The position numbers and the translations under genes are program-made. This document shows positions 26,132 to 60,628 of a stretch of 64,000 nt of DNA, piece after piece (position 1 is the first letter of the stretch; every line of letters starts with the position of its first letter). Source of the DNA: Nitrosopumilaceae archaeon (lineage in GTDB: Archaea; Thermoproteota; Nitrososphaeria; Nitrososphaerales; Nitrosopumilaceae). Location: NCBI GenBank assembly GCA_965209085.1, contig OZ242376.1:1408001-1472000 (forward strand). Direction: 5' to 3'. The notes under the pieces were generated by a model. It worked only from the letters and a program-made list of their open reading frames with translations, did not search any database and had not been told where the DNA came from.

Positions 26132-26169
26132 GGGTATTCCCCGTATGTTTAAGTTATTCTTTTTTCAAT

Positions 26170-26216
26170 ACTGTAAACTTGGTGTATGCGCACTAGTATG
26201 GATCTTCTTGGAATTG
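26170..26216 (-). repeat. End-repeat copy A
   Basis: Reverse strand CAATTCCAAGAAGATCCATACTAGTGCGCATACACCAAGTTTACAGT. Confidence 0.8.
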
Positions 26217-26251
26217 AACCAAAAAAATGGTCTATTATTTTCACAATAATA

Positions 26252-26455
26252 TCAATCCATGCCATCATGTTCTAATTTAGAACGCAAATAACGCATATCC
26301 GGACCACCTTTTATCCTATTACAAATTCCACACGAGTCCGCACCAGCGTCCATGCCGCTACTAGATCTAGGTTTTATATGATCAACTTGTAAATTTTATC
26401 CTGTAATGGTTTTTACAGCCATTGCAAAACTTGGATTGTTTTTCATAATCTGAAG
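26252..26455 (-). pseudogene. HNH endonuclease domain remnant
   Basis: YEKQSKFCNGCKNHY, a frameshift, then NLQVDHIKPRSSSG...CGICNRIKG...MRYLRSKL; no N-terminus. Confidence 0.72.
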
Positions 26456-26522
26456 ATTTTAACATTAAAGTTTCTGAATTAAATAAATAGTAAATACTGA
26501 ATTAAAATGCAATCTTACATAC

Positions 26523-27250
26523 TTGGGAATAATAATTAAATCTAGTATAATAAATTATTACAGCCAATCTATTACTTCTCCGCCCTCTTCGTATGGAACG
26601 GAATCGGTGTCATCATTCACAAGTAATCATATTAATATTGTTGATTATATATATTTTCATATCGACGAATTATTCTTAAGAGAATTACGTACAGAATTTG
26701 ATCAATATATGAGCATTATAAATATTCTAGAAAGAAAAGCTCAAAATCTAAGTGTCATATCTACCATATTAATTACAATATTAATTGGTACTAAAATTCT
26801 TGATAATAATGCTTCATTACACGTACTTGTTCCATTATCTATTACTGTTGGTTTATTATTAGCATCAATTGTATCTAGTCGTTTTGCAGCTGGCATTCAT
26901 GGACAAGTAATGCATATTAATTTTAGACAATTTTTTATTTTAAATCGTGTTGGAGGTGAACAATATTCTATAAATGATGATAAAATTAATCAATTCATAA
27001 TACATGATTCAATAACAATAAATGGAAAAAAATCTTCTACTAGTGATGCATCCCAAGAAAATAAATCAATTAATCTGCAGATATGTCTAATCAACGAATA
27101 TAATGGCTTTACATAATGCAGTACGAAATGGTAAACGTATCGCTAAACAGGTTAAACGTGCTCAAAAATATTTTAATCTTGGAGTAATTTCATCAGTTAT
27201 TACAGTAATCATATTATCATCATATTTGGCAAAAATTATACCGAATTAAC
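26523..27250 (+). pseudogene. Frameshifted 3-TM membrane protein resembling Pycsar effector (PycTM/DUF5706) topology
   Basis: ERKAQNLSVISTILITIL (TM1), TM2, soluble loop; after a frameshift near 27100 continues IMALHNAVRNGKRIAKQVKRAQKYFNLG + TM3 to a stop at 27250; start codon uncertain. Confidence 0.5.
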
Positions 27251-27305
27251 ATCCCCTTGTAACAAAATATTACAAACTCACAATAACAAAAAGATCACTT
27301 TCAAG

Positions 27306-27355
27306 CAATCCAAAGAAGATCCATATTCATGTCCATGTGCCTACAAGTTTACAGT
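27306..27355 (+). repeat. End-repeat copy B
   Basis: CAATCCAAAGAAGATCCATATTCATGTCCATGTGCCTACAAGTTTACAGT. Confidence 0.8.
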
Positions 27356-27365
27356 GCCTTTTTTT

Positions 27366-27788
27366 CTATTTGGATTTTTTTTCAGGTTTATCTTTTGTCT
27401 TTTCTTCAGATTTTGCTCCAGTCTTTTCTTCTTTTTTTGTTTCCGGGATTATGCCGTCCAGTCTGCAGTTTATTTGATACATTTCCTCTGTAATTTGATT
27501 TCCACGCACGAGTTTGCGCTTACGCGTGCCAGTTTCAGCCTTGTTCAAACCCACGCCAGGTGACAATAATACGTATTTACGCGCTCCGCCGTGTACGTCC
27601 TGTCTCATTGGAACGCCAGACTTGTCGCTGCCGCCGGTTATCTTTATTTTGCCTCTAAATCCAACTATGGCCGCGTCCGTTTCTTTGCCAATCTCCAACC
27701 CCAACAACGGTGTAGCCTCGGCATCCTTTAGCTCTTTTGTCATGGATTTTCCCTTTGTGTCAGATATAGTGAGCTTAAAGCTTGCCAT
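27366..27788 (-). CDS. rps6e: 30S ribosomal protein eS6
   Basis: KITGGSDKSGVPMR, RKRKLVRGN. Confidence 0.96.
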   Translation of the reverse strand: MASFKLTISDTKGKSMTKELKDAEATPLLGLEIGKETDAAIVGFRGKIKITGGSDKSGVPMRQDVHGGARKYVLLSPGVGLNKAETGTRKRKLVRGNQITEEMYQINCRLDGIIPETKKEEKTGAKSEEKTKDKPEKKSK

Positions 27789-54658: not shown

Positions 54659-56485
54659 CTAGATTCTTCGTTTTTCGCGGGAAATACTGTCTTTGTTTTG
54701 GTTTGAACCCTCGTTATTTCCAGAATCCTTCTTTTCGGATTTGTCCTGGCGGTCATATCGCCCTCCACTGTGTTCGGATCCTCGATCATCGCTCCTGTTA
54801 AAACGTCCGCCGCTGCGATCTGATCCTCTCTCAAATCTGCCGCCGCTGCTACCTCTATCAGGGCGTCCGCCGTCCCGTCCAGAACCTCTACTTTCAAATC
54901 TGCCGCCGCTACTGCCTCTATCAGGGCGTCCGCCGTCCCGTCCAGAACCTCTACTTTCAAATCTGCCGCCGCTACTGCCTCTATCAGAGCGTCCGCCGTC
55001 CCGTCCAGAACCTCTACTTTCAAATCTGCCGCCGCTACTGCCTCTATCAGGGCGTCCGCCGTCCCGTCCAGAACCTCTACTTTCAAATCTGCCGCCGCTA
55101 CTGCCTCTATCAGGGCGTCCGCCATCGCGTCCAGGACCTCTGCGTTCAAATCTGCCGCCGCTACTGCCTCTATCAGAGCGTCCGCCGTCCCGTCCAGAAC
55201 CTCTACTTTCAAATCTGCCGCCGCTGCTGCCTCTATCAGGGCGTCCGCCATCGCGTCCTGGACCTCTGCGTTCAAATCTTCGATTATCATGTCCAAAACC
55301 TCCACGACCACCGCCGCGTCCGAATCCGCCGCGCGATACCTGGCGTTTTAGAGGATCCGGTATGTCAACTTTTATTCCCATCTCTTTATTCAGATCAGTC
55401 ATCTCTACCTTTACTTTTCTTTTTATCATCTCAAAATCCGGTGCAGACGAGTATGATACTAGTGTTATCGCCTTGCCTTTTTCACCCGCCCGTGCCGTTC
55501 TTCCGATACGGTGAAAGTAAATCATCTCCTGGTTTGGTATGTCATAGTTTATCACCAGAGCTACGTGCGGAACATCTATGCCTCTAGCTGCCACATCAGT
55601 TGCCACCAATATGTCAGCTTTGCCAGTTCGGAATTTTGTCATGGACTGTTCCCGTCTGTGCTGTGACATGTCACCTTCTATGGCTACTGCGTCAAAGCCC
55701 ATTTTTCGAAGATCGTGTGTAACATCCCTGGTACGGTATTTTGTAGAACAAAATACAATTGACTGCATTGTGCCATTTTTCTTTATAAAATCTACTAGAT
55801 GATCCATTTTTTCTTTGTCTCGTATAACCAGAAATGACTGATCTATTCCCTCGCCGCTTAAATCGTCGTTGTCAAGCAGAAACTGTTTTGGATTTCTCAG
55901 ATAATTCTCTGCCAATCTTAAAATTTCAACTGGCATGGTAGCTGAGAAAAGCGAAACCACTTTTTCTTCCGGTGTGAGATCCATGATAAACTGTATGTCG
56001 TCTATAAATCCCATATCCAGCATGGTATCTGCCTCATCCAATACCATGTATGAGATATCGTCCAAATTGACAGAGCCGCGTTTTAAATGATCTATGAGCC
56101 TGCCAGGTGTTGCTACAAGAATTTCCACTCCGCGTTTTATTGCATCCAGTTGCGGCCCCATGCTTTGCCCGCCATATATGGTAGTCACTCGCAGTTTGGT
56201 ATATTTTGCAAATTTTTCAATTTCAACAGATATCTGGTTTGCAAGCTCTCTAGTTGGAGCAATTACAAGTCCTTGAATTCCAGATCCTGGCTGTAATCTT
56301 TCAATCATGGATATAGCATATGCGGCAGTTTTGCCAGTTCCAGTATGAGCTTGTCCTATTACGTCACGACCAGTAAGTAAAACAGGTATGGCAGCTTGCT
56401 GTATTGGAAACGCCTCTTCAAAACCATTTTCGTCGAGCGCGGCGATTATCTGCTCTCCGATTCCCATATCTCTAAATGTTGTCAT
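54659..56485 (-). CDS. DEAD-box RNA helicase with a long RGG/SR-rich repetitive tail
   Basis: Q motif, TGTGKT, PTRELA, DEAD, SAT, HRIGRTAR. Confidence 0.96.
   Translation of the reverse strand: MTTFRDMGIGEQIIAALDENGFEEAFPIQQAAIPVLLTGRDVIGQAHTGTGKTAAYAISMIERLQPGSGIQGLVIAPTRELANQISVEIEKFAKYTKLRVTTIYGGQSMGPQLDAIKRGVEILVATPGRLIDHLKRGSVNLDDISYMVLDEADTMLDMGFIDDIQFIMDLTPEEKVVSLFSATMPVEILRLAENYLRNPKQFLLDNDDLSGEGIDQSFLVIRDKEKMDHLVDFIKKNGTMQSIVFCSTKYRTRDVTHDLRKMGFDAVAIEGDMSQHRREQSMTKFRTGKADILVATDVAARGIDVPHVALVINYDIPNQEMIYFHRIGRTARAGEKGKAITLVSYSSAPDFEMIKRKVKVEMTDLNKEMGIKVDIPDPLKRQVSRGGFGRGGGRGGFGHDNRRFERRGPGRDGGRPDRGSSGGRFESRGSGRDGGRSDRGSSGGRFERRGPGRDGGRPDRGSSGGRFESRGSGRDGGRPDRGSSGGRFESRGSGRDGGRSDRGSSGGRFESRGSGRDGGRPDRGSSGGRFESRGSGRDGGRPDRGSSGGRFERGSDRSGGRFNRSDDRGSEHSGGRYDRQDKSEKKDSGNNEGSNQNKDSISREKRRI
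54831..55279. repeat. Coding tandem repeat, 7 x 63 bp plus a partial unit
   Basis: TCAAATC recurs at 54831, 54894, 54957, 55020, 55083, 55146, 55209 and 55272; encodes FE(S/R)RG(S/P)GRDGGR(P/S)DRGSSGGR. Confidence 0.97.
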
Positions 56486-56578
56486 ATTTTTACTCTGGCA
56501 ATGACAGAAAGCTCATTGCGCAGTCTGTCATATTTCCAAATGTTGTTCTTATATGCTGACTAATAAACGCTTATAATT
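56486..56578 (-). promoter_or_regulatory. DEAD-box helicase promoter and structured ~60-nt 5' leader
   Basis: TATA-like TTATAAGC at ~56569-56576; perfect inverted repeat ATGACAGA (56501-56508)/TCTGTCAT (56524-56531). Confidence 0.55.
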
Positions 56579-56635
56579 TGAATCTGTGAGGTTATCGTGC
56601 ATTTCCACGCCTAAATTTCTTAAAATTCTAGATCG

Positions 56636-56804
56636 CTATTTTTTCCATATTACCCTAACTACCACTAGGCTAATCAAAGCTGTCAACGAGAACGTCATAA
56701 CTACCACCATTAATCTTGCCAATCCGTCAAATCCAAAATATGCCATGGGTATGCCTATGATCTGACTGAATGAAAATTATGAATGTTTTTTTTCCTTTGC
56801 CCAT
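56636..56804 (-). pseudogene. Frameshifted small two-TM membrane protein
   Basis: MGKGKKTFIIFI, then in a shifted frame SQIIGIPMAYFGFDGLARLMVVVMTFSLTALISLVVVRVIWKK*. Confidence 0.45.
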
Positions 56805-56844
56805 AAAGTATGACTTTATCATACCTTTTTTTAATCATACCTAC

Positions 56845-57875
56845 ACCATAACGGCCATTATTGACAAGATTGAACGGAACGAGAAACGATTAGAATCAAT
56901 GCAAAACGAGATTGATGCAAAAAACAGAATGATTGAATCCCTTCTTCAACGCCATCGATCATGCTATGAAAACTCAAACACTCCGTCTTCAAGCAGGTCT
57001 TTGCAGCAAAAAGAGTAAAAACATGACACGTATTGCACGTGAAATCGGAGATCTACCTCCAAAGGGCAAAGCCAGAAGGAAAACAAGGATACAGATGTAT
57101 CTTGCATAAACACAATCCATCAAGTATTGTAAGACATGATGTAGAAAAAATCAGATGTGTATGCAGTTCCAGGATGAAATACTCACATACGATGACCCAA
57201 GATATGTTGGACTACAAACAATCTGTTGCAGTTGAAACGCCACGAGATCGAGGTTCTCGTCTGTCCGAATTGCAATTGAATGCATAAAGCAGAAAACGAT
57301 CTGCCAAGAATGGGATCGTACGGTGAGAACATTGTGGCATTTATCGGACAGTGTAGAGCAGAAAGACTGCCCATGCATGCAATTCCAAACATGGTAAAAC
57401 AGTATGCAGTATAACAATCGTAACATCCACAGTATCCAACGTACTCTCAAATATTACAGATTCAATGGAAAATGACGCCAAATCCATCACAAACGAGGTA
57501 ACAATCTCACCCCATGTTCATATCGATGAGACATCGTACAGTTTGGATGGAGATCTTGTATGGATATTGGCATTGATGCACAAAAACACGGTGGCAATGA
57601 TCATGAACAAGAGCCGCGGCGTGTACGTAATGGATTCGTATATGGACAAATAAGATGATATTGTGATAACTGACGGATACAATGTGTACAAAAGATTTGA
57701 TTCTGGCAGTATGCATCAGCGGTGCAGGGTTCATGAAATACATGAGGCAAAACATGTAGGCATGTATGCAGGGCGGCGTGATTCTATGATGAGGATGTCA
57801 AACTTTCTTACCTGCATTTGGACATGGAAAATGCAGGGCAAAAGCGTGTTTGACGAGGTGTTGGCTATTGTTTAA
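56845..57875 (+). mobile_element. Degraded IS66-family transposase
   Basis: Coiled coil + YENSNTPSS, HIDETSY..VWI, ITDGYNVY..HQRC.VH, TCIWTWKMQG; multiple stops/frameshifts and an internal deletion. Confidence 0.82.
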
Positions 57876-57938
57876 TAGGTAAATTCATACGAATAAATGG
57901 CAAACGTTGATATAAAATGCAAGCTTGCATACTTGCGA

Positions 57939-58151
57939 TTAAAGTTTTAAGCCCAATTCTCGTATTATATCATTAACATAAATTGTAGGTAACATTCGTT
58001 CATATTGAAAATATCTAGTTTTATTATTTTCAGGATTACTAATTATCAATTTGTTACTCGCATTAGTGGGATTTGGGTTTTGACTGATATTTCCTCCTAA
58101 TACTGTAAGAAGATTATAAGCCTCATGTCCGCTAATCCATTCGTCTCCCAA
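57939..58151 (-). CDS. HicA-like small protein (toxin fold, catalytic GSH motif not seen)
   Basis: ISGHEAYNLLTVLG...LPTIYVNDIIRELGL fits the HicA pattern; overlaps the HicB-like gene. Confidence 0.5.
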   Translation of the reverse strand: MGDEWISGHEAYNLLTVLGGNISQNPNPTNASNKLIISNPENNKTRYFQYERMLPTIYVNDIIRELGLKL

Positions 58152-58350
58152 TTTTAATCACTTTTGACTCCTCTAGTTCTTTACCTTCTTTATTCATATA
58201 TTTGAGATAAAAATCAACACCTTCTTCTAAATTCTGTTTTAATTTATCATCCGTTTTTGCAAATACTGAAACTGCAGGATATTCTGCACATTTTCCTATA
58301 CAATAACCATCGTATGATTTCTTAATCATGTGGATGTCATTATTACTCAT
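58132..58350 (-). CDS. HicB-like antitoxin
   Basis: DGYCIGKCAEYPAVSVFAKTDDKLKQNLEEGVDFYL; GAGGTG Shine-Dalgarno upstream of the ATG. Confidence 0.7.
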   Translation of the reverse strand: MSNNDIHMIKKSYDGYCIGKCAEYPAVSVFAKTDDKLKQNLEEGVDFYLKYMNKEGKELEESKVIKIGRRMD

Positions 58351-58418
58351 ATTTTGCTGCACCTCTGTAAATAACCCACCATGTTTACATTTAAACTAAG
58401 CGATCAGCATTTTTAATC

Positions 58419-58471
58419 CAATCGAAAGAAGATCCATAATCATGCCTATACACCGATAAGTTCATAGAACC
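58419..58471 (+). repeat. End-repeat copy C
   Basis: CAATCGAAAGAAGATCCATAATCATGCCTATACACCGATAAGTTCATAGAACC. Confidence 0.78.
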
Positions 58472-58702
58472 ATAATTTGAACTGCGAACACGTTTGTCTC
58501 ACAGTTACAGTGAGATACGCTGTAAACGGCCCACGGATGCACAGCATAAATCCGGTTTAATTGAATTTTAATAAATCTGTGCGATTTCTCAAAATGAGCA
58601 AATCTTCTGCAATCCCCATCATCATGATTTAATGCATCATCTCATATGGGAACGAACTGGGACGAATACGCTTTATAATGTACCATCGGTGCACAGATTT
58701 AT

Positions 58703-58777
58703 GCCAATGTAGCTCAGCCTGGCTAGAGCATTCGCCTTGTAAGCGAAAGGTCGAGGGTTCAAAGCCCTCCATTGGCT
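58703..58777 (+). tRNA. tRNA-Thr(TGT)
   Basis: GCCAATG/CATTGGC, TTCGC-CTTGTAA-GCGAA, GAGGG-TTCAAAG-CCCTC. Confidence 0.95.
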
Positions 58778-58885
58778 TAAACTATGATAAAACAACAGAT
58801 TTGTCGTTATTCTTGTATTGAATCGACAGTCATATACGCAGTACAGGTATGTTCAGTTTTTATATCATTAAAGATAACATGTGGC

Positions 58886-59095
58886 ATGAAATTTCGCAGA
58901 ATCAAGCCAAAAAAACTCAAGGTGCTTACGCTCATGTTTTTTGGTACGGGAGGTCTTGGCATAATAATGGGACTGCGTTCGGGGGATTTTAACATGACGT
59001 CCATTGGAACAAGTTTTATCTGCATAGGGGGATTTATCGGGTGGATGTTTCTTACAGGCAAACACGATCGCGATCCGCGTAAGAGGAAAAAATAA
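58886..59095 (+). CDS. Small two-TM membrane protein
   Basis: Basic termini flanking two hydrophobic helices; TATA-like TTTATAT upstream. Confidence 0.7.
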   Translation: MKFRRIKPKKLKVLTLMFFGTGGLGIIMGLRSGDFNMTSIGTSFICIGGFIGWMFLTGKHDRDPRKRKK

Positions 59096-59170
59096 TTTAC
59101 AGACGGGTTAATGAATGATTTTTATCGATTTATTGGAACACTTTTTTATGTACATATATGAACCCAAATC

Positions 59171-60628
59171 ATGAAGCGCGACTATGACGTCATAATAGCA
59201 GGTGGAGGATTGGCAGGAACGATTGCAGCACAATCCGTGCACAAATATTCTAATGGAAATTTATCCATTTTGGTTATAGATCGCAGCCCAGAGCACATGC
59301 CGGGAAGCAAGAGCGTTGCAGGATGGATCTGTGGCGATGCTGTAAGTAAAGAAACAGTTGACTATATGACAGAACGTTTAGGCACCAAATGGGAGAGTCC
59401 GGAGATTGAACACAAAGTAAAGGGAGTAATGGCGTTTTCTCCTGACAGGCAGACATCAATACCTTTTGACGGGGACGGGTACATGTTGAACAGAAAACTA
59501 CTTCCCGAGAGACAGAATCAAAGATGTAAAAATATGGGAATAGAATTTGCATACAAGACCAATCTTGGCGGATTGTTGTATGAAAACGGCCAAGTAACCG
59601 GTGTGCGCGGGACGGGTTCAGATGGAGCAGCATTCAAAAAAACTGCCAGTATTGTAATTGATGCAACCGGAATTACGTCCATGCTGCGCAACCAGATTGA
59701 AAATACCACAAAGATTGAAAAAAAGATAGACAGACACGATATAGAGTCAACCGGCAGGCACATTATGGACTTTGAAACAGGAGAGGAGGATCTTACCGAA
59801 TTTGATCCAGATTACTGTATAATACATCTAGATCAGGATATTGCGCCAGGAGGATACGGCTGGGTTTTTCCAAAAGGCAAAAACAAAGTAAACATCGGCC
59901 TTGGCGTTGAAAAATCTCTTTTGGAGAAACGCAACAAGAGACTTGGACAAAATAGCAACGTATCCAAATTGATAAACGAATATGTAAAAAGAAACCGTGC
60001 GATAAAAAACCCCATCATATCCACTGACGAATCAGATGTATACAATGCCACCGGAAATTTCCAAGTCTCGGTGCGCCGGCAAAACGACTGTCTAGTTGCA
60101 GGTGGATTTATGCTTGTAGGCGATTCTGCATGGATGCCAAAACCGCTTGATGCGGGAGGAATAGGTCCGGCCCTGATTGCCGGTACGATTGTAGGCAAGT
60201 GTGCAGCTCTTGCAATTGAAAGCGGCGACTGTAGCGAATCAGGACTGTGGCAGTACAACAGGGAATTTATACGCGAATACGGATATAAAACGGCAGGTTT
60301 GGAAATTTTTCGAAGGCTGATTCAGACATTAAGCAACGATCAGATAAGTTACGGCATGAAACATTTTCTTGGCAATTTGGACGTGGAGGCAATATCAAAG
60401 GGTGAGCATCCTGATTTTGGCGCACTAGGTAAAATGGGCATGATGATACGCGGTATTTTGAACAAAAACCTAGCAAAGGGTCTGCGGTTTACTAGCGGAG
60501 AAAACAGATGGCTGACTGACCATTACAACAACTATCCAGAATCCCCCGAGGGTTTTGAGGCATGGAGTGCAAAACTGCGTACGCGTCTTGGGGATGCAAA
60601 TACAAAACTTGCAATGTATCAAAACTAG
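59171..60628 (+). CDS. Geranylgeranyl (DGGGPL) reductase family flavoprotein
   Basis: GGGLAG, ICGDAV, DATG, GYGWVFPK, VGDSA..PLDAGGI. Confidence 0.9.
   Translation: MKRDYDVIIAGGGLAGTIAAQSVHKYSNGNLSILVIDRSPEHMPGSKSVAGWICGDAVSKETVDYMTERLGTKWESPEIEHKVKGVMAFSPDRQTSIPFDGDGYMLNRKLLPERQNQRCKNMGIEFAYKTNLGGLLYENGQVTGVRGTGSDGAAFKKTASIVIDATGITSMLRNQIENTTKIEKKIDRHDIESTGRHIMDFETGEEDLTEFDPDYCIIHLDQDIAPGGYGWVFPKGKNKVNIGLGVEKSLLEKRNKRLGQNSNVSKLINEYVKRNRAIKNPIISTDESDVYNATGNFQVSVRRQNDCLVAGGFMLVGDSAWMPKPLDAGGIGPALIAGTIVGKCAALAIESGDCSESGLWQYNREFIREYGYKTAGLEIFRRLIQTLSNDQISYGMKHFLGNLDVEAISKGEHPDFGALGKMGMMIRGILNKNLAKGLRFTSGENRWLTDHYNNYPESPEGFEAWSAKLRTRLGDANTKLAMYQN

What the first reader, a model, noticed from the sequence alone, without database searches (positions are those of the whole stretch)
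56583..58471. The same end-repeat family brackets a second, unrelated island ~30 kb away
Seen: copy C (58419-58471) aligns ungapped to copy B (27306-27358) at 40/53 positions and shares ATACACC with copy A. At the other edge, 56583-56637 resembles the reverse complement of C at both ends (TCTGTGAGGTTATCG-TGCAT vs TCTATGAACTTATCGGTGTAT; TTAAAATTCTAGATCGCT vs TTAAAAATGCTGATCGCT). The cargo differs: a small TM pseudogene, a nested IS66 relic and a HicBA-like pair. In both islands the left end lies just upstream of the TATA box of a leftward housekeeping gene (eif2g; DEAD helicase). Inference: one mobilisation system with interchangeable cargo and possibly promoter-proximal targeting.
Basis: partly seen in the sequence, partly recalled or inferred. 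Interest (0 to 1): 0.72.

Follow-up and report, generated by a model that had tools for sequence, protein, structure and literature searches.

The report
Decayed IS6-family cargo transposon relic
The 1.9-kb island between the DEAD-box helicase gene and tRNA-Thr is the dead remnant of an IS6-family transposon that carried passenger genes, and it matters mainly because intact cargo-carrying relatives exist in this and related ammonia-oxidising archaea.

Summary
Copy C belongs to a real repeat family (C vs B 40/53). Copy D is its partner, although D alone is barely above background. The clinching evidence is a 10-nt direct repeat, ATAATTTGAA, that abuts both ends and reads as an 8-bp target duplication.

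The repeats are terminal inverted repeats of an IS6-family element. An intact 3,040-bp master copy lies elsewhere in the genome (C1:1312905-1315944). It has 25-bp perfect ends, a 371-aa DDE_Tnp_IS240 transposase and three passenger ORFs. A 99.6-99.9% identical twin is flanked by an 8-bp duplication.

Island 2 is colinear with that master. From left to right it holds:
- end D
- a small membrane ORF
- a shared 39-bp block
- an IS66-family relic, sitting where the transposase gene was
- the last 14 transposase codons
- a HicB/HicA-like pair, in place of the master's two passenger ORFs
- end C

Island 1 holds the same transposase stub and is absent from a same-genus genome.

The "one mobilisation system, exchangeable cargo" reading is supported. 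Relatives carry 2.7-5.0 kb IS6-type units, two of them with restriction-modification cargo. Promoter targeting is not supported. Island 2 itself is an immobile fossil.

The parts
56573..56580 (.). Left copy of the target-site duplication ATAATTTG. Identity with the right copy continues 2 nt further, to 56582.
   Evidence: The 8-mer occurs 94 times on the + strand of the 1.69-Mb genome.
56581..56637 (+). Copy D, the degenerate left terminal inverted repeat. The terminal block is 56583-56602. A second block, about 56621-56642, resembles the inner part of C.
   Evidence: Best match to the family terminus in the spacer, but 81/2000 shuffles reach it. Second block: 93/5000 shuffles. E=28 genome-wide.
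56636..56746 (-). 36-aa ORF with one predicted membrane helix, reading outward. It occupies the slot that holds a 125-aa membrane-protein gene in the master element.
   Evidence: Translation. No tblastn similarity to the master's 125-aa protein, so homology is not shown.
56805..56843 (-). 39-bp block 95% identical to the stretch just upstream of the membrane-protein gene in both master copies. It is found nowhere else in the genome.
56845..57890 (+). IS66-family transposase relic with stops, frameshifts and an internal deletion of about 240 bp. The right boundary is exact. The left boundary is approximate.
   Evidence: tblastn against an intact paralogue gives E=8e-37 and 1e-16. That paralogue is DDE_Tnp_IS66 at 72.8 bits. 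The 3' boundary is shared with more than 10 copies.
57892..57933 (+). Stub of the IS6-family transposase gene: its last 14 codons, 13/14 identical to the master with one stop. DNA similarity runs to 57948.
   Evidence: It also matches 26482-26532 in island 1 (D8).
57939..58151 (-). 70-aa ORF, HicA-like by predicted fold (alpha-beta-beta-beta-alpha).
   Evidence: AlphaFold2 mean pLDDT 79.6. Foldseek top hit is HicA3 4p78_C, TM 0.60/0.62, E=0.16. VIA Z=4.8, rmsd 3.1, 62 aligned. ESM Atlas 0.82. No Pfam hit at E<=10.
58132..58362 (-). 76-aa ORF (the 72-aa form starts at 58350), HicB-like by language-model features only.
   Evidence: ESM Atlas 0.90-0.91 to HicB-named clusters. 9 relatives of 48-984 aa by phmmer; none of the 7 scanned has a Pfam hit. 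No PDB or PADLOC hit. The model was too poor to use, pLDDT 54.
58405..58471 (-). Copy C, the long (about 65 nt) right terminal inverted repeat. Its outermost base is 58471.
   Evidence: E=1.6e-16; E=9e-8.
58472..58479 (.). Right copy of the target-site duplication ATAATTTG. Identity continues to 58481.
26167..27358 (.). Island 1, a second decayed derivative. It comprises end A (26167-26232), a transposase stub of the last 27 codons (26449-26529), membrane ORFs (26523-27249, +) and end B (27292-27358). It is flanked by CTTTTTTC (26159-26166) and TTTTTTTC (27359-27366).
   Evidence: It is absent from same-genus G001, where eIF-2gamma and S6e are about 70 nt apart.

Best explanation
Window 56581-58471 is a fossil of an IS6-family transposon of the passenger-carrying kind (a 'transporter IS').

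Shown:
- C and D are its terminal inverted repeats.
- An 8-bp (apparent 10-nt) target duplication flanks it.
- Its interior is colinear with an intact 3,040-bp master element in the same genome.
- Only the last 14 codons of the transposase gene remain, directly after the 3' end of an IS66-family relic.

Inferred course of events:
1. An IS6-type DDE transposase cut and joined the two ends into the helicase/tRNA-Thr spacer. It was encoded either by the element itself or by a sister copy. This created the 8-bp duplication that is typical of the family.
2. An IS66-family element later landed in or beside the transposase gene, and most of that gene was lost.
3. The IS66 copy and the left end then decayed.

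The element can no longer move by itself. It probably cannot be moved in trans either, because 5 of the 14 outermost positions of D differ from the family terminus.

The cargo slot between the transposase 3' end and the long end-repeat holds a HicB/HicA-like pair here and other genes in sister copies. This is the basis of the 'interchangeable cargo' impression.
For: Repeat family:
- C vs B 40/53, A vs C 34/45.
- At least 10 further genomic copies.

Master element C1:1312905-1315944:
- 25-bp perfect inverted ends.
- Twin at 570889-575328, 99.6% identical over 1919 nt and 99.9% over 1130 nt. Identity ends at the termini, and the twin carries the 8-bp duplication TGTGATAA.
- Its 371-aa protein is DDE_Tnp_IS240, 58.1 bits against a cut-off of 27.

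Island 2:
- The 10-nt direct repeat abuts both ends. Joint chance with the terminal match is about 1e-5.
- 39-bp block at 95% identity to the master.
- Transposase stub, 13/14 aa.
- C is 83% identical to the master's long end over 53 nt.

Insertion status:
- The helicase and tRNA-Thr are neighbours (gaps about 70-1520 nt) in 7 of 18 same-family genomes.
- Homology with same-genus G001 stops at 56572, one base before the duplication.
- Island 1 has an empty site in G001.

8-bp duplications also flank passenger-carrying IS6-type units in relatives: G006 (ATAAAACA, 2733 bp) and G014 (AAATTAAC, 2826 bp). The IS6 family is defined by 8-bp duplications and short conserved inverted repeats (PMC7986276, passages seen).
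Against: - D alone is at background level: E=28 genome-wide, about 4-5% of shuffles or genome chunks, and absent from the A/B/C profile list.
- The exact duplication is ambiguous. A strict 8-bp reading requires D to begin AATCTG instead of GGTTCTG.
- The master copy at 1312905 itself has no duplication.
- No relative shows a clean empty site for island 2. G001 has a different neighbour gene upstream of the helicase, and its tRNA-Thr lies on another contig.
- The small membrane ORF shows no detectable similarity to the master's 125-aa protein.
- Apart from the 39-bp block, the D-side interior does not align with the master.
Confidence: 0.85

Rival explanations
1. The island is a still-mobile, non-autonomous cassette (a mobile insertion cassette) that the master element's transposase moves in trans.
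For: It has both ends plus a target duplication and no transposase of its own. One intact transposase gene of the same element type exists in the genome. The HicAB-like ORFs are intact.
Against: There is only one copy of this cargo in the genome. D differs from the family terminus at 5 of its 14 outermost positions and has a 1-nt gap. C is only 83% identical to the master end. The IS66 relic inside is riddled with stops, so the insertion is old.
Confidence: 0.07
2. C is a solo end relic. D and the flanking 10-mer are chance, and the island is ordinary strain-specific spacer DNA with a nested IS66.
For: D is not significant on its own. The flanks are AT-rich, which inflates short repeats.
Against: The 10-mer sits exactly at both termini, with a joint chance of about 1e-5. 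The interior holds two further master-specific pieces in the right order and orientation, the 39-bp block and the transposase stub.
Confidence: 0.04
3. The direct repeats are attachment sites of an integrase-mobilised island next to tRNA-Thr.
For: The island lies 231 nt from a tRNA gene and is bounded by a direct repeat.
Against: No integrase ORF was noticed among the ORFs of at least 40 aa listed for the island. The repeat does not overlap the tRNA. The ends are inverted repeats of an IS6-type terminus, and the repeat length fits the family's 8 bp.
Confidence: 0.02

Closest known systems
IS6 family insertion sequences (IS26, IS257, IS240 group), including the single passenger-carrying member ISDsp3
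   Same: The transposase has the DDE_Tnp_IS240 domain. Inverted ends start GG, and 8-bp target duplications are seen. These match the family description in PMC7986276 (passages). From my recall, not from a call, IS257 ends start GGTTCTG and IS26 ends GGCACTG. That would match the GGTTCTG of most copies and the GGCACTG of copy B.
   Different: Typical members are 700-890 bp with one ORF. The review lists only one member with a passenger gene and two MITEs. Here the units are 2.7-5.0 kb, with cargo on both sides of a 371-458-aa SWIM-finger transposase. The inverted ends are 25-51 bp, and one end extends to about 65 conserved nt.
Mobile insertion cassettes (IS ends plus cargo, no transposase)
   Same: Islands 1 and 2 have IS-type inverted ends and a target duplication, with non-transposase genes and no working transposase.
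   Different: Both still contain the 3' stub of the transposase gene. They therefore arose by decay of full elements rather than as dedicated cassettes. Mobility in trans is untested and unlikely for island 2. The concept is recalled and seen only in search listings.
IS66 family (single-ORF ISBst12-like form)
   Same: The relic at about 56845-57890 matches intact genomic paralogues that hit DDE_Tnp_IS66 (72.8 bits) and weakly zf-IS66.
   Different: It is a dead copy nested in the IS6-type element. It is not the system that made the island's ends.
HicAB type II toxin-antitoxin pairs
   Same: Two small overlapping ORFs. The 70-aa product is predicted to have the alpha-beta3-alpha fold, with HicA chains among the top structural hits. 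The 76-aa product lies nearest HicB-named clusters.
   Different: There is no hit to the HicA_toxin or HicB Pfam models at E<=10. Structural scores are in the range of common small folds (Z 4.8). By my reading of the sequence, no histidine sits where I recall the catalytic one to be. That position is recalled, not tested.

Membership tests
IS6 family | Transposase with the IS240-type DDE domain | tested here: met
   The master copy scores 58.1 bits against a cut-off of 27. Island 2 keeps only the last 14 codons (13/14 identical). Island 1 keeps the last 27 codons (15/27 identical, with stops).
IS6 family | Short conserved terminal inverted repeats | tested here: met
   The master has 25-bp perfect ends. 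C matches at E=9e-8. D is degenerate: 17 of 21 aligned columns match, with one gap.
IS6 family | 8-bp direct target duplication | tested here: met
   Twin copy TGTGATAA 8/8. Island 2 ATAATTTG(AA). Island 1 7/8. G006 ATAAAACA. G014 AAATTAAC. The master copy at 1312905 has none.
IS6 family | Simple organisation: about 0.8 kb, with a single transposase ORF filling the element | tested here: not met
   The master is 3,040 bp with three further ORFs. Relatives are 2.7-5.0 kb. It is therefore a passenger-carrying variant.
IS6 family | Transposition through cointegrates | not testable with these tools
   No experiment was possible.
Mobile insertion cassette | IS-type ends and a duplication around cargo, no transposase, moved in trans | tested here: inconclusive
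   The structure is met. Mobility was not tested. There is a single copy in the genome.
IS66 family (nested relic) | DDE_Tnp_IS66 transposase | tested here: met
   The relic matches an intact paralogue at E=8e-37. That paralogue hits PF03050 at 72.8 bits against a cut-off of 23.1. The relic's own pieces give no Pfam hit.
HicAB toxin-antitoxin | HicA_toxin and HicB-type domains recognisable by sequence | tested here: not met
   No Pfam hit at E<=10. No hit to a HicA- or HicB-type model in NCBIfam at E<=10. No PADLOC hit at E<=1. No HicB-type chain among the four weak PDB matches of the sequence profile at E<=10.
HicAB toxin-antitoxin | HicA double-stranded-RNA-binding-like fold | tested here: inconclusive
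   pLDDT 79.6. HicA3 TM 0.60, E=0.16. Z=4.8, tied with unrelated small folds.

The most novel reading that the evidence does not exclude
The IS6-type elements of this family of ammonia-oxidising archaea may be a distinct class of cargo-carrying DDE transposons of 2.7-5 kb. They have two cargo slots around a SWIM-finger transposase. One slot would be driven from a roughly 65-nt conserved end that doubles as a portable promoter. The elements would shuttle addiction and defence modules (restriction-modification, HicAB-like pairs) and small membrane proteins within and between genomes. A 2019 survey stated that passenger-carrying transposons had not been detected in archaea.
Probability: 0.35. Interest if true: 0.55.

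Novelty: new variant of a known kind. Interest (0 to 1): 0.36.

Why it matters
The island itself is an ordinary fossil. The family behind it is the more useful result. Whole units of 2.8-5.0 kb with passenger genes occur as 99.6-100% identical second copies in this genome (3.0 kb) and in two other genomes of the family, G014 and G050. Where flanks could be read, they carry 8-bp duplications. This shows that IS6-type transposases move cargo in ammonia-oxidising archaea, including a DNA methyltransferase gene (N6_N4_Mtase, 157 bits) and type I restriction-modification pieces. The IS6 review lists a single passenger-carrying member (PMC7986276). The thaumarchaeal mobilome survey states that passenger-carrying transposons had not been detected in archaea (PMC6563490, passage). 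The elements also mark sites of genome rearrangement next to housekeeping genes.

Tried and rejected
- Searching for D with a profile of A, B and C found nothing at E<=100. The two ends of the master are alike for only 25 nt, so that profile was the wrong probe.
- No Pfam hit for the five pieces of the IS66 relic or for island 1's ORFs at E<=0.01. A weak BBP1_C hit on the first piece (E=0.0017, below the cut-off) was ignored.
- No hit to any HicA- or HicB-type model or chain for the HicB/HicA-like ORFs. Pfam was searched at E<=10, NCBIfam at E<=10, PADLOC at E<=1, and a PDB sequence profile at E<=10. The few weak hits were to unrelated families.
- The word-indexed protein search found only the query itself.
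- The HicB-like single-sequence model was too poor to search with (pLDDT 54).
- Foldseek gave no PDB match at E<=0.001 for the HicA-like model.
- The master's passenger proteins were not found in 11 relatives' transposase loci or elsewhere in the genome.
- Rfam finds only the tRNA in 56000-59200.
- The exact left boundary of the IS66 relic could not be fixed.
- An integrase/attachment-site reading and a 'solo relic' reading were considered and rejected (see rivals).
- Promoter targeting was rejected as unproven.
- Literature searches for IS6 elements with passengers in Thaumarchaeota found no description. Supplementary tables of PMC6563490, which hold its IS coordinates, were not opened and may list these elements as plain IS.
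Full report
SETTING. The window is C1:1408001-1472000 of a single-contig 1.69-Mb genome with 41% G+C. The genome encodes archaeal AmoA (394.7 bits), so the organism is an ammonia-oxidising archaeon. The finding lies in the spacer between a leftward DEAD-box helicase gene (54659-56485) and tRNA-Thr(UGU) (58703-58777).

THE OBSERVATION.
About 1.6e-4 such pairs are expected among all pairs in the window.
- The repeat finder reports the B/C pair as 67 nt at 72%. It reports A (26181-26225) as the inverted partner of both B and C.
- A profile of A, B and C finds at least 10 more copies in the genome at E<0.01, so the family is real.
- D is not in that list, even at E<=100.
- With a profile of the terminal 30 nt of six strong copies, D scores 5.8 bits, E=28.
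- Its terminal 20 nt are the best match to the family terminus in the 1.9-kb spacer. However, 81/2000 dinucleotide shuffles and 88/1768 equal-sized genome chunks do as well.

WHAT RESCUES D. The other genomic copies led to a complete element at C1:1312905-1315944 (3,040 bp) with 25-bp perfect inverted ends, GGTTCTGTAAACTTATCGGTGCATA. A twin lies at 570889-575328. It is 99.6% identical over 1919 nt and 99.9% over 1130 nt, and is interrupted by a 1.4-kb DDE_Tnp_4 element. Identity stops at the termini, and the twin is flanked by an 8-bp duplication, TGTGATAA.

The master encodes four ORFs, in this order:
- an 83-aa ORF, which follows the long end and reads inward;
- a 96-aa ORF, on the same strand;
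- a 371-aa protein on the opposite strand, which is an IS6-family transposase (DDE_Tnp_IS240, 58.1 bits against a cut-off of 27);
- a 125-aa membrane protein next to the other end.

The two ends agree for only 25 nt. The end next to the two small ORFs is conserved among copies for about 65 nt, and this is the A/B/C type. That explains why the A/B/C profile missed D.

Island 2 is this element in the opposite orientation:
- C is 83% identical to the long end over 53 nt.
- 57892-57933 encodes the last 14 residues of the transposase, 13/14 identical with one stop.
- 56805-56843 is 95% identical to the 39 nt just upstream of the master's membrane-protein gene. That block occurs nowhere else in the genome.
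- D sits where the short end should be.
- The 10-mer ATAATTTGAA lies immediately outside D (56573-56582) and immediately outside C (58472-58481).

The 8-mer ATAATTTG occurs 94 times per genome strand. Allowing five offsets and multiplying by the 4% chance of the terminal match gives about 1e-5. I read this as the family's 8-bp target duplication plus two ambiguous bases.

ANATOMY AND HISTORY. Between the 39-bp block and the transposase stub lies an IS66-family relic (about 56845-57890).
- It matches an intact genomic paralogue at E=8e-37 and 1e-16. That paralogue is DDE_Tnp_IS66 at 72.8 bits.
- It carries stops and frameshifts and lacks about 240 bp.
- Its 3' end at 57890 is the boundary shared by more than 10 genomic copies.
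- The transposase stub starts two bases later.

From this I infer that the IS66 copy inserted near codon 356 of the transposase gene and that the rest of the gene was later lost. The order and mechanism of these events are not shown.

Where the master has its 96- and 83-aa ORFs, island 2 has two overlapping ORFs of 70 and 76 (or 72) aa.
- The 70-aa product folds with confidence (pLDDT 79.6) into alpha-beta3-alpha. HicA chains are among the top hits in both structure searches, but at weak scores: TM 0.60, E=0.16, Z=4.8.
- The 76-aa product lies nearest HicB-named clusters in the ESM Atlas, at 0.90-0.91.
- Neither product hits any HicA- or HicB-type sequence model.

'HicBA-like' therefore remains a lead.

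The 36-aa ORF at 56636-56746 has one hydrophobic helix. It shows no similarity to the master's membrane protein. I cannot say whether it is a pseudogene.

IS IT AN INSERTION?
- In 7 of 18 same-family genomes (G002, G003, G004, G007, G013, G015, G016) the helicase and a 90-99% identical tRNA-Thr lie about 70-1520 nt apart. In the window they are 2.2 kb apart.
- In the other 11 genomes the two lie on different contigs, lie far apart, or match only weakly.
- No relative gives a clean empty site. In same-genus G001, homology upstream of the helicase ends at 56572, one base before the duplication, and is followed by a different gene.
- Island 1 is clearer. G001 has eIF-2gamma and S6e about 70 nt apart. 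Its spacer aligns with the two flanks of island 1 once a single copy of (C/T)TTTTTTC is removed.
- 9 of 12 same-family genomes searched show the two genes within about 250 nt of each other.
- Island 1 also keeps the last 27 codons of the transposase gene.

CARGO AND TARGETING. The slot between the transposase 3' end and the long end holds different genes in different copies:
- the master and its twin: two coiled-coil ORFs;
- island 2: the HicB/HicA-like pair;
- island 1: a 197+48-aa membrane ORF;
- a fourth relic at 1311962-1312781: about 300 nt that include a short dispersed repeat.

The transposase family is present in 26 of 60 other genomes of the taxonomic family at E<=1e-20. Whole units defined by identical second copies, or by ends plus a duplication, are long:
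- G006: 2,733 bp, duplication ATAAAACA, with membrane-protein ORFs.
- G014: 2,826 bp, 51-bp ends, duplication AAATTAAC.
- G014: 4,027 bp with an N6_N4_Mtase gene (157 bits).
- G050: 4,976 bp with type I restriction-modification pieces.
- G015: 1,788 bp with the transposase gene as its only long ORF.

The 'one system, exchangeable cargo' reading is therefore supported, at the level of the family.

Targeting is not supported. 8 of 16 catalogued ends lie within 200 nt upstream of a start codon. In a compact genome that is expected for insertions that survive in spacers. Island 1's other end touches the S6e stop codon.

COMPARISON WITH WHAT IS KNOWN. The IS6 review (PMC7986276; passages read) describes elements of 700-890 bp with 8-bp duplications. 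It lists two MITEs, a zinc-finger clade with longer transposases, and a single member with a passenger gene. Its archaeal clades named in the passages are halophiles, Thermococcales, Methanococcales and Sulfolobales. The thaumarchaeal mobilome survey (PMC6563490; passages read) reports 244 IS of 13 families. [quoted passage not shown] My four literature searches found no description of such IS6 units. I did not open that survey's supplementary IS tables.

VERDICT. The finding is real and explained. It is a dead, IS66-disrupted derivative of a passenger-carrying IS6-family transposon, bounded by its inverted ends and an 8-bp duplication. Island 2 itself is of low interest. The family of 2.7-5-kb cargo-carrying IS6 units in ammonia-oxidising archaea is a modestly new variant of a known kind.

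Noticed in passing
window 58703-58777; loci L004, L009, L010: In all 7 same-family genomes where the helicase and tRNA-Thr are neighbours, the tRNA lies on the opposite strand relative to the window. The next gene (58784-59095) keeps the window's orientation in L004, L009 and L010. Same-genus G001 shares the window's orientation of the tRNA relative to that next gene, so this small inversion seems genus-level and is not obviously tied to island 2.
   Followed up: partly
genome C1:1312905-1315944 and 570889-575328 (outside the window): These are the intact 3,040-bp IS6-family element with three passenger ORFs of unknown function, and its twin, which is disrupted by a 1.4-kb DDE_Tnp_4 element. 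They are the only copies of these passenger ORFs in the genome.
   Followed up: yes
L031:1322-5348 and L032 (G014); L035:433-5408 and L036 (G050): IS6-type units of 4,027 and 4,976 bp are present as 100% and 99.98% identical second copies. They carry an N6_N4 DNA methyltransferase plus a 386-aa unknown ORF, and type I restriction-modification pieces (Methylase_S, split N6_Mtase).
   Followed up: partly
genome C1:1312639-1312720 (outside the window): A repeat of about 80 nt has roughly 30 copies at 77-93% identity across the genome, seen as a block of hits when the master element's flank was searched. It is possibly a miniature element and was not characterised.
   Followed up: no
window 54765-55342: Seven tandem 63-nt units encode the arginine/glycine-rich repeats in the C-terminal tail of the DEAD-box helicase. 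The G001 orthologue has a similar but differently phased repeat tail.
   Followed up: no
genome C1:1625891-1625967 and 1624446-1625884 (outside the window): Another long-type IS6 end has an intact-looking 1.44-kb IS66-family element inserted only 7 nt inside it. IS66 copies have therefore landed in IS6-type elements more than once in this genome.
   Followed up: partly
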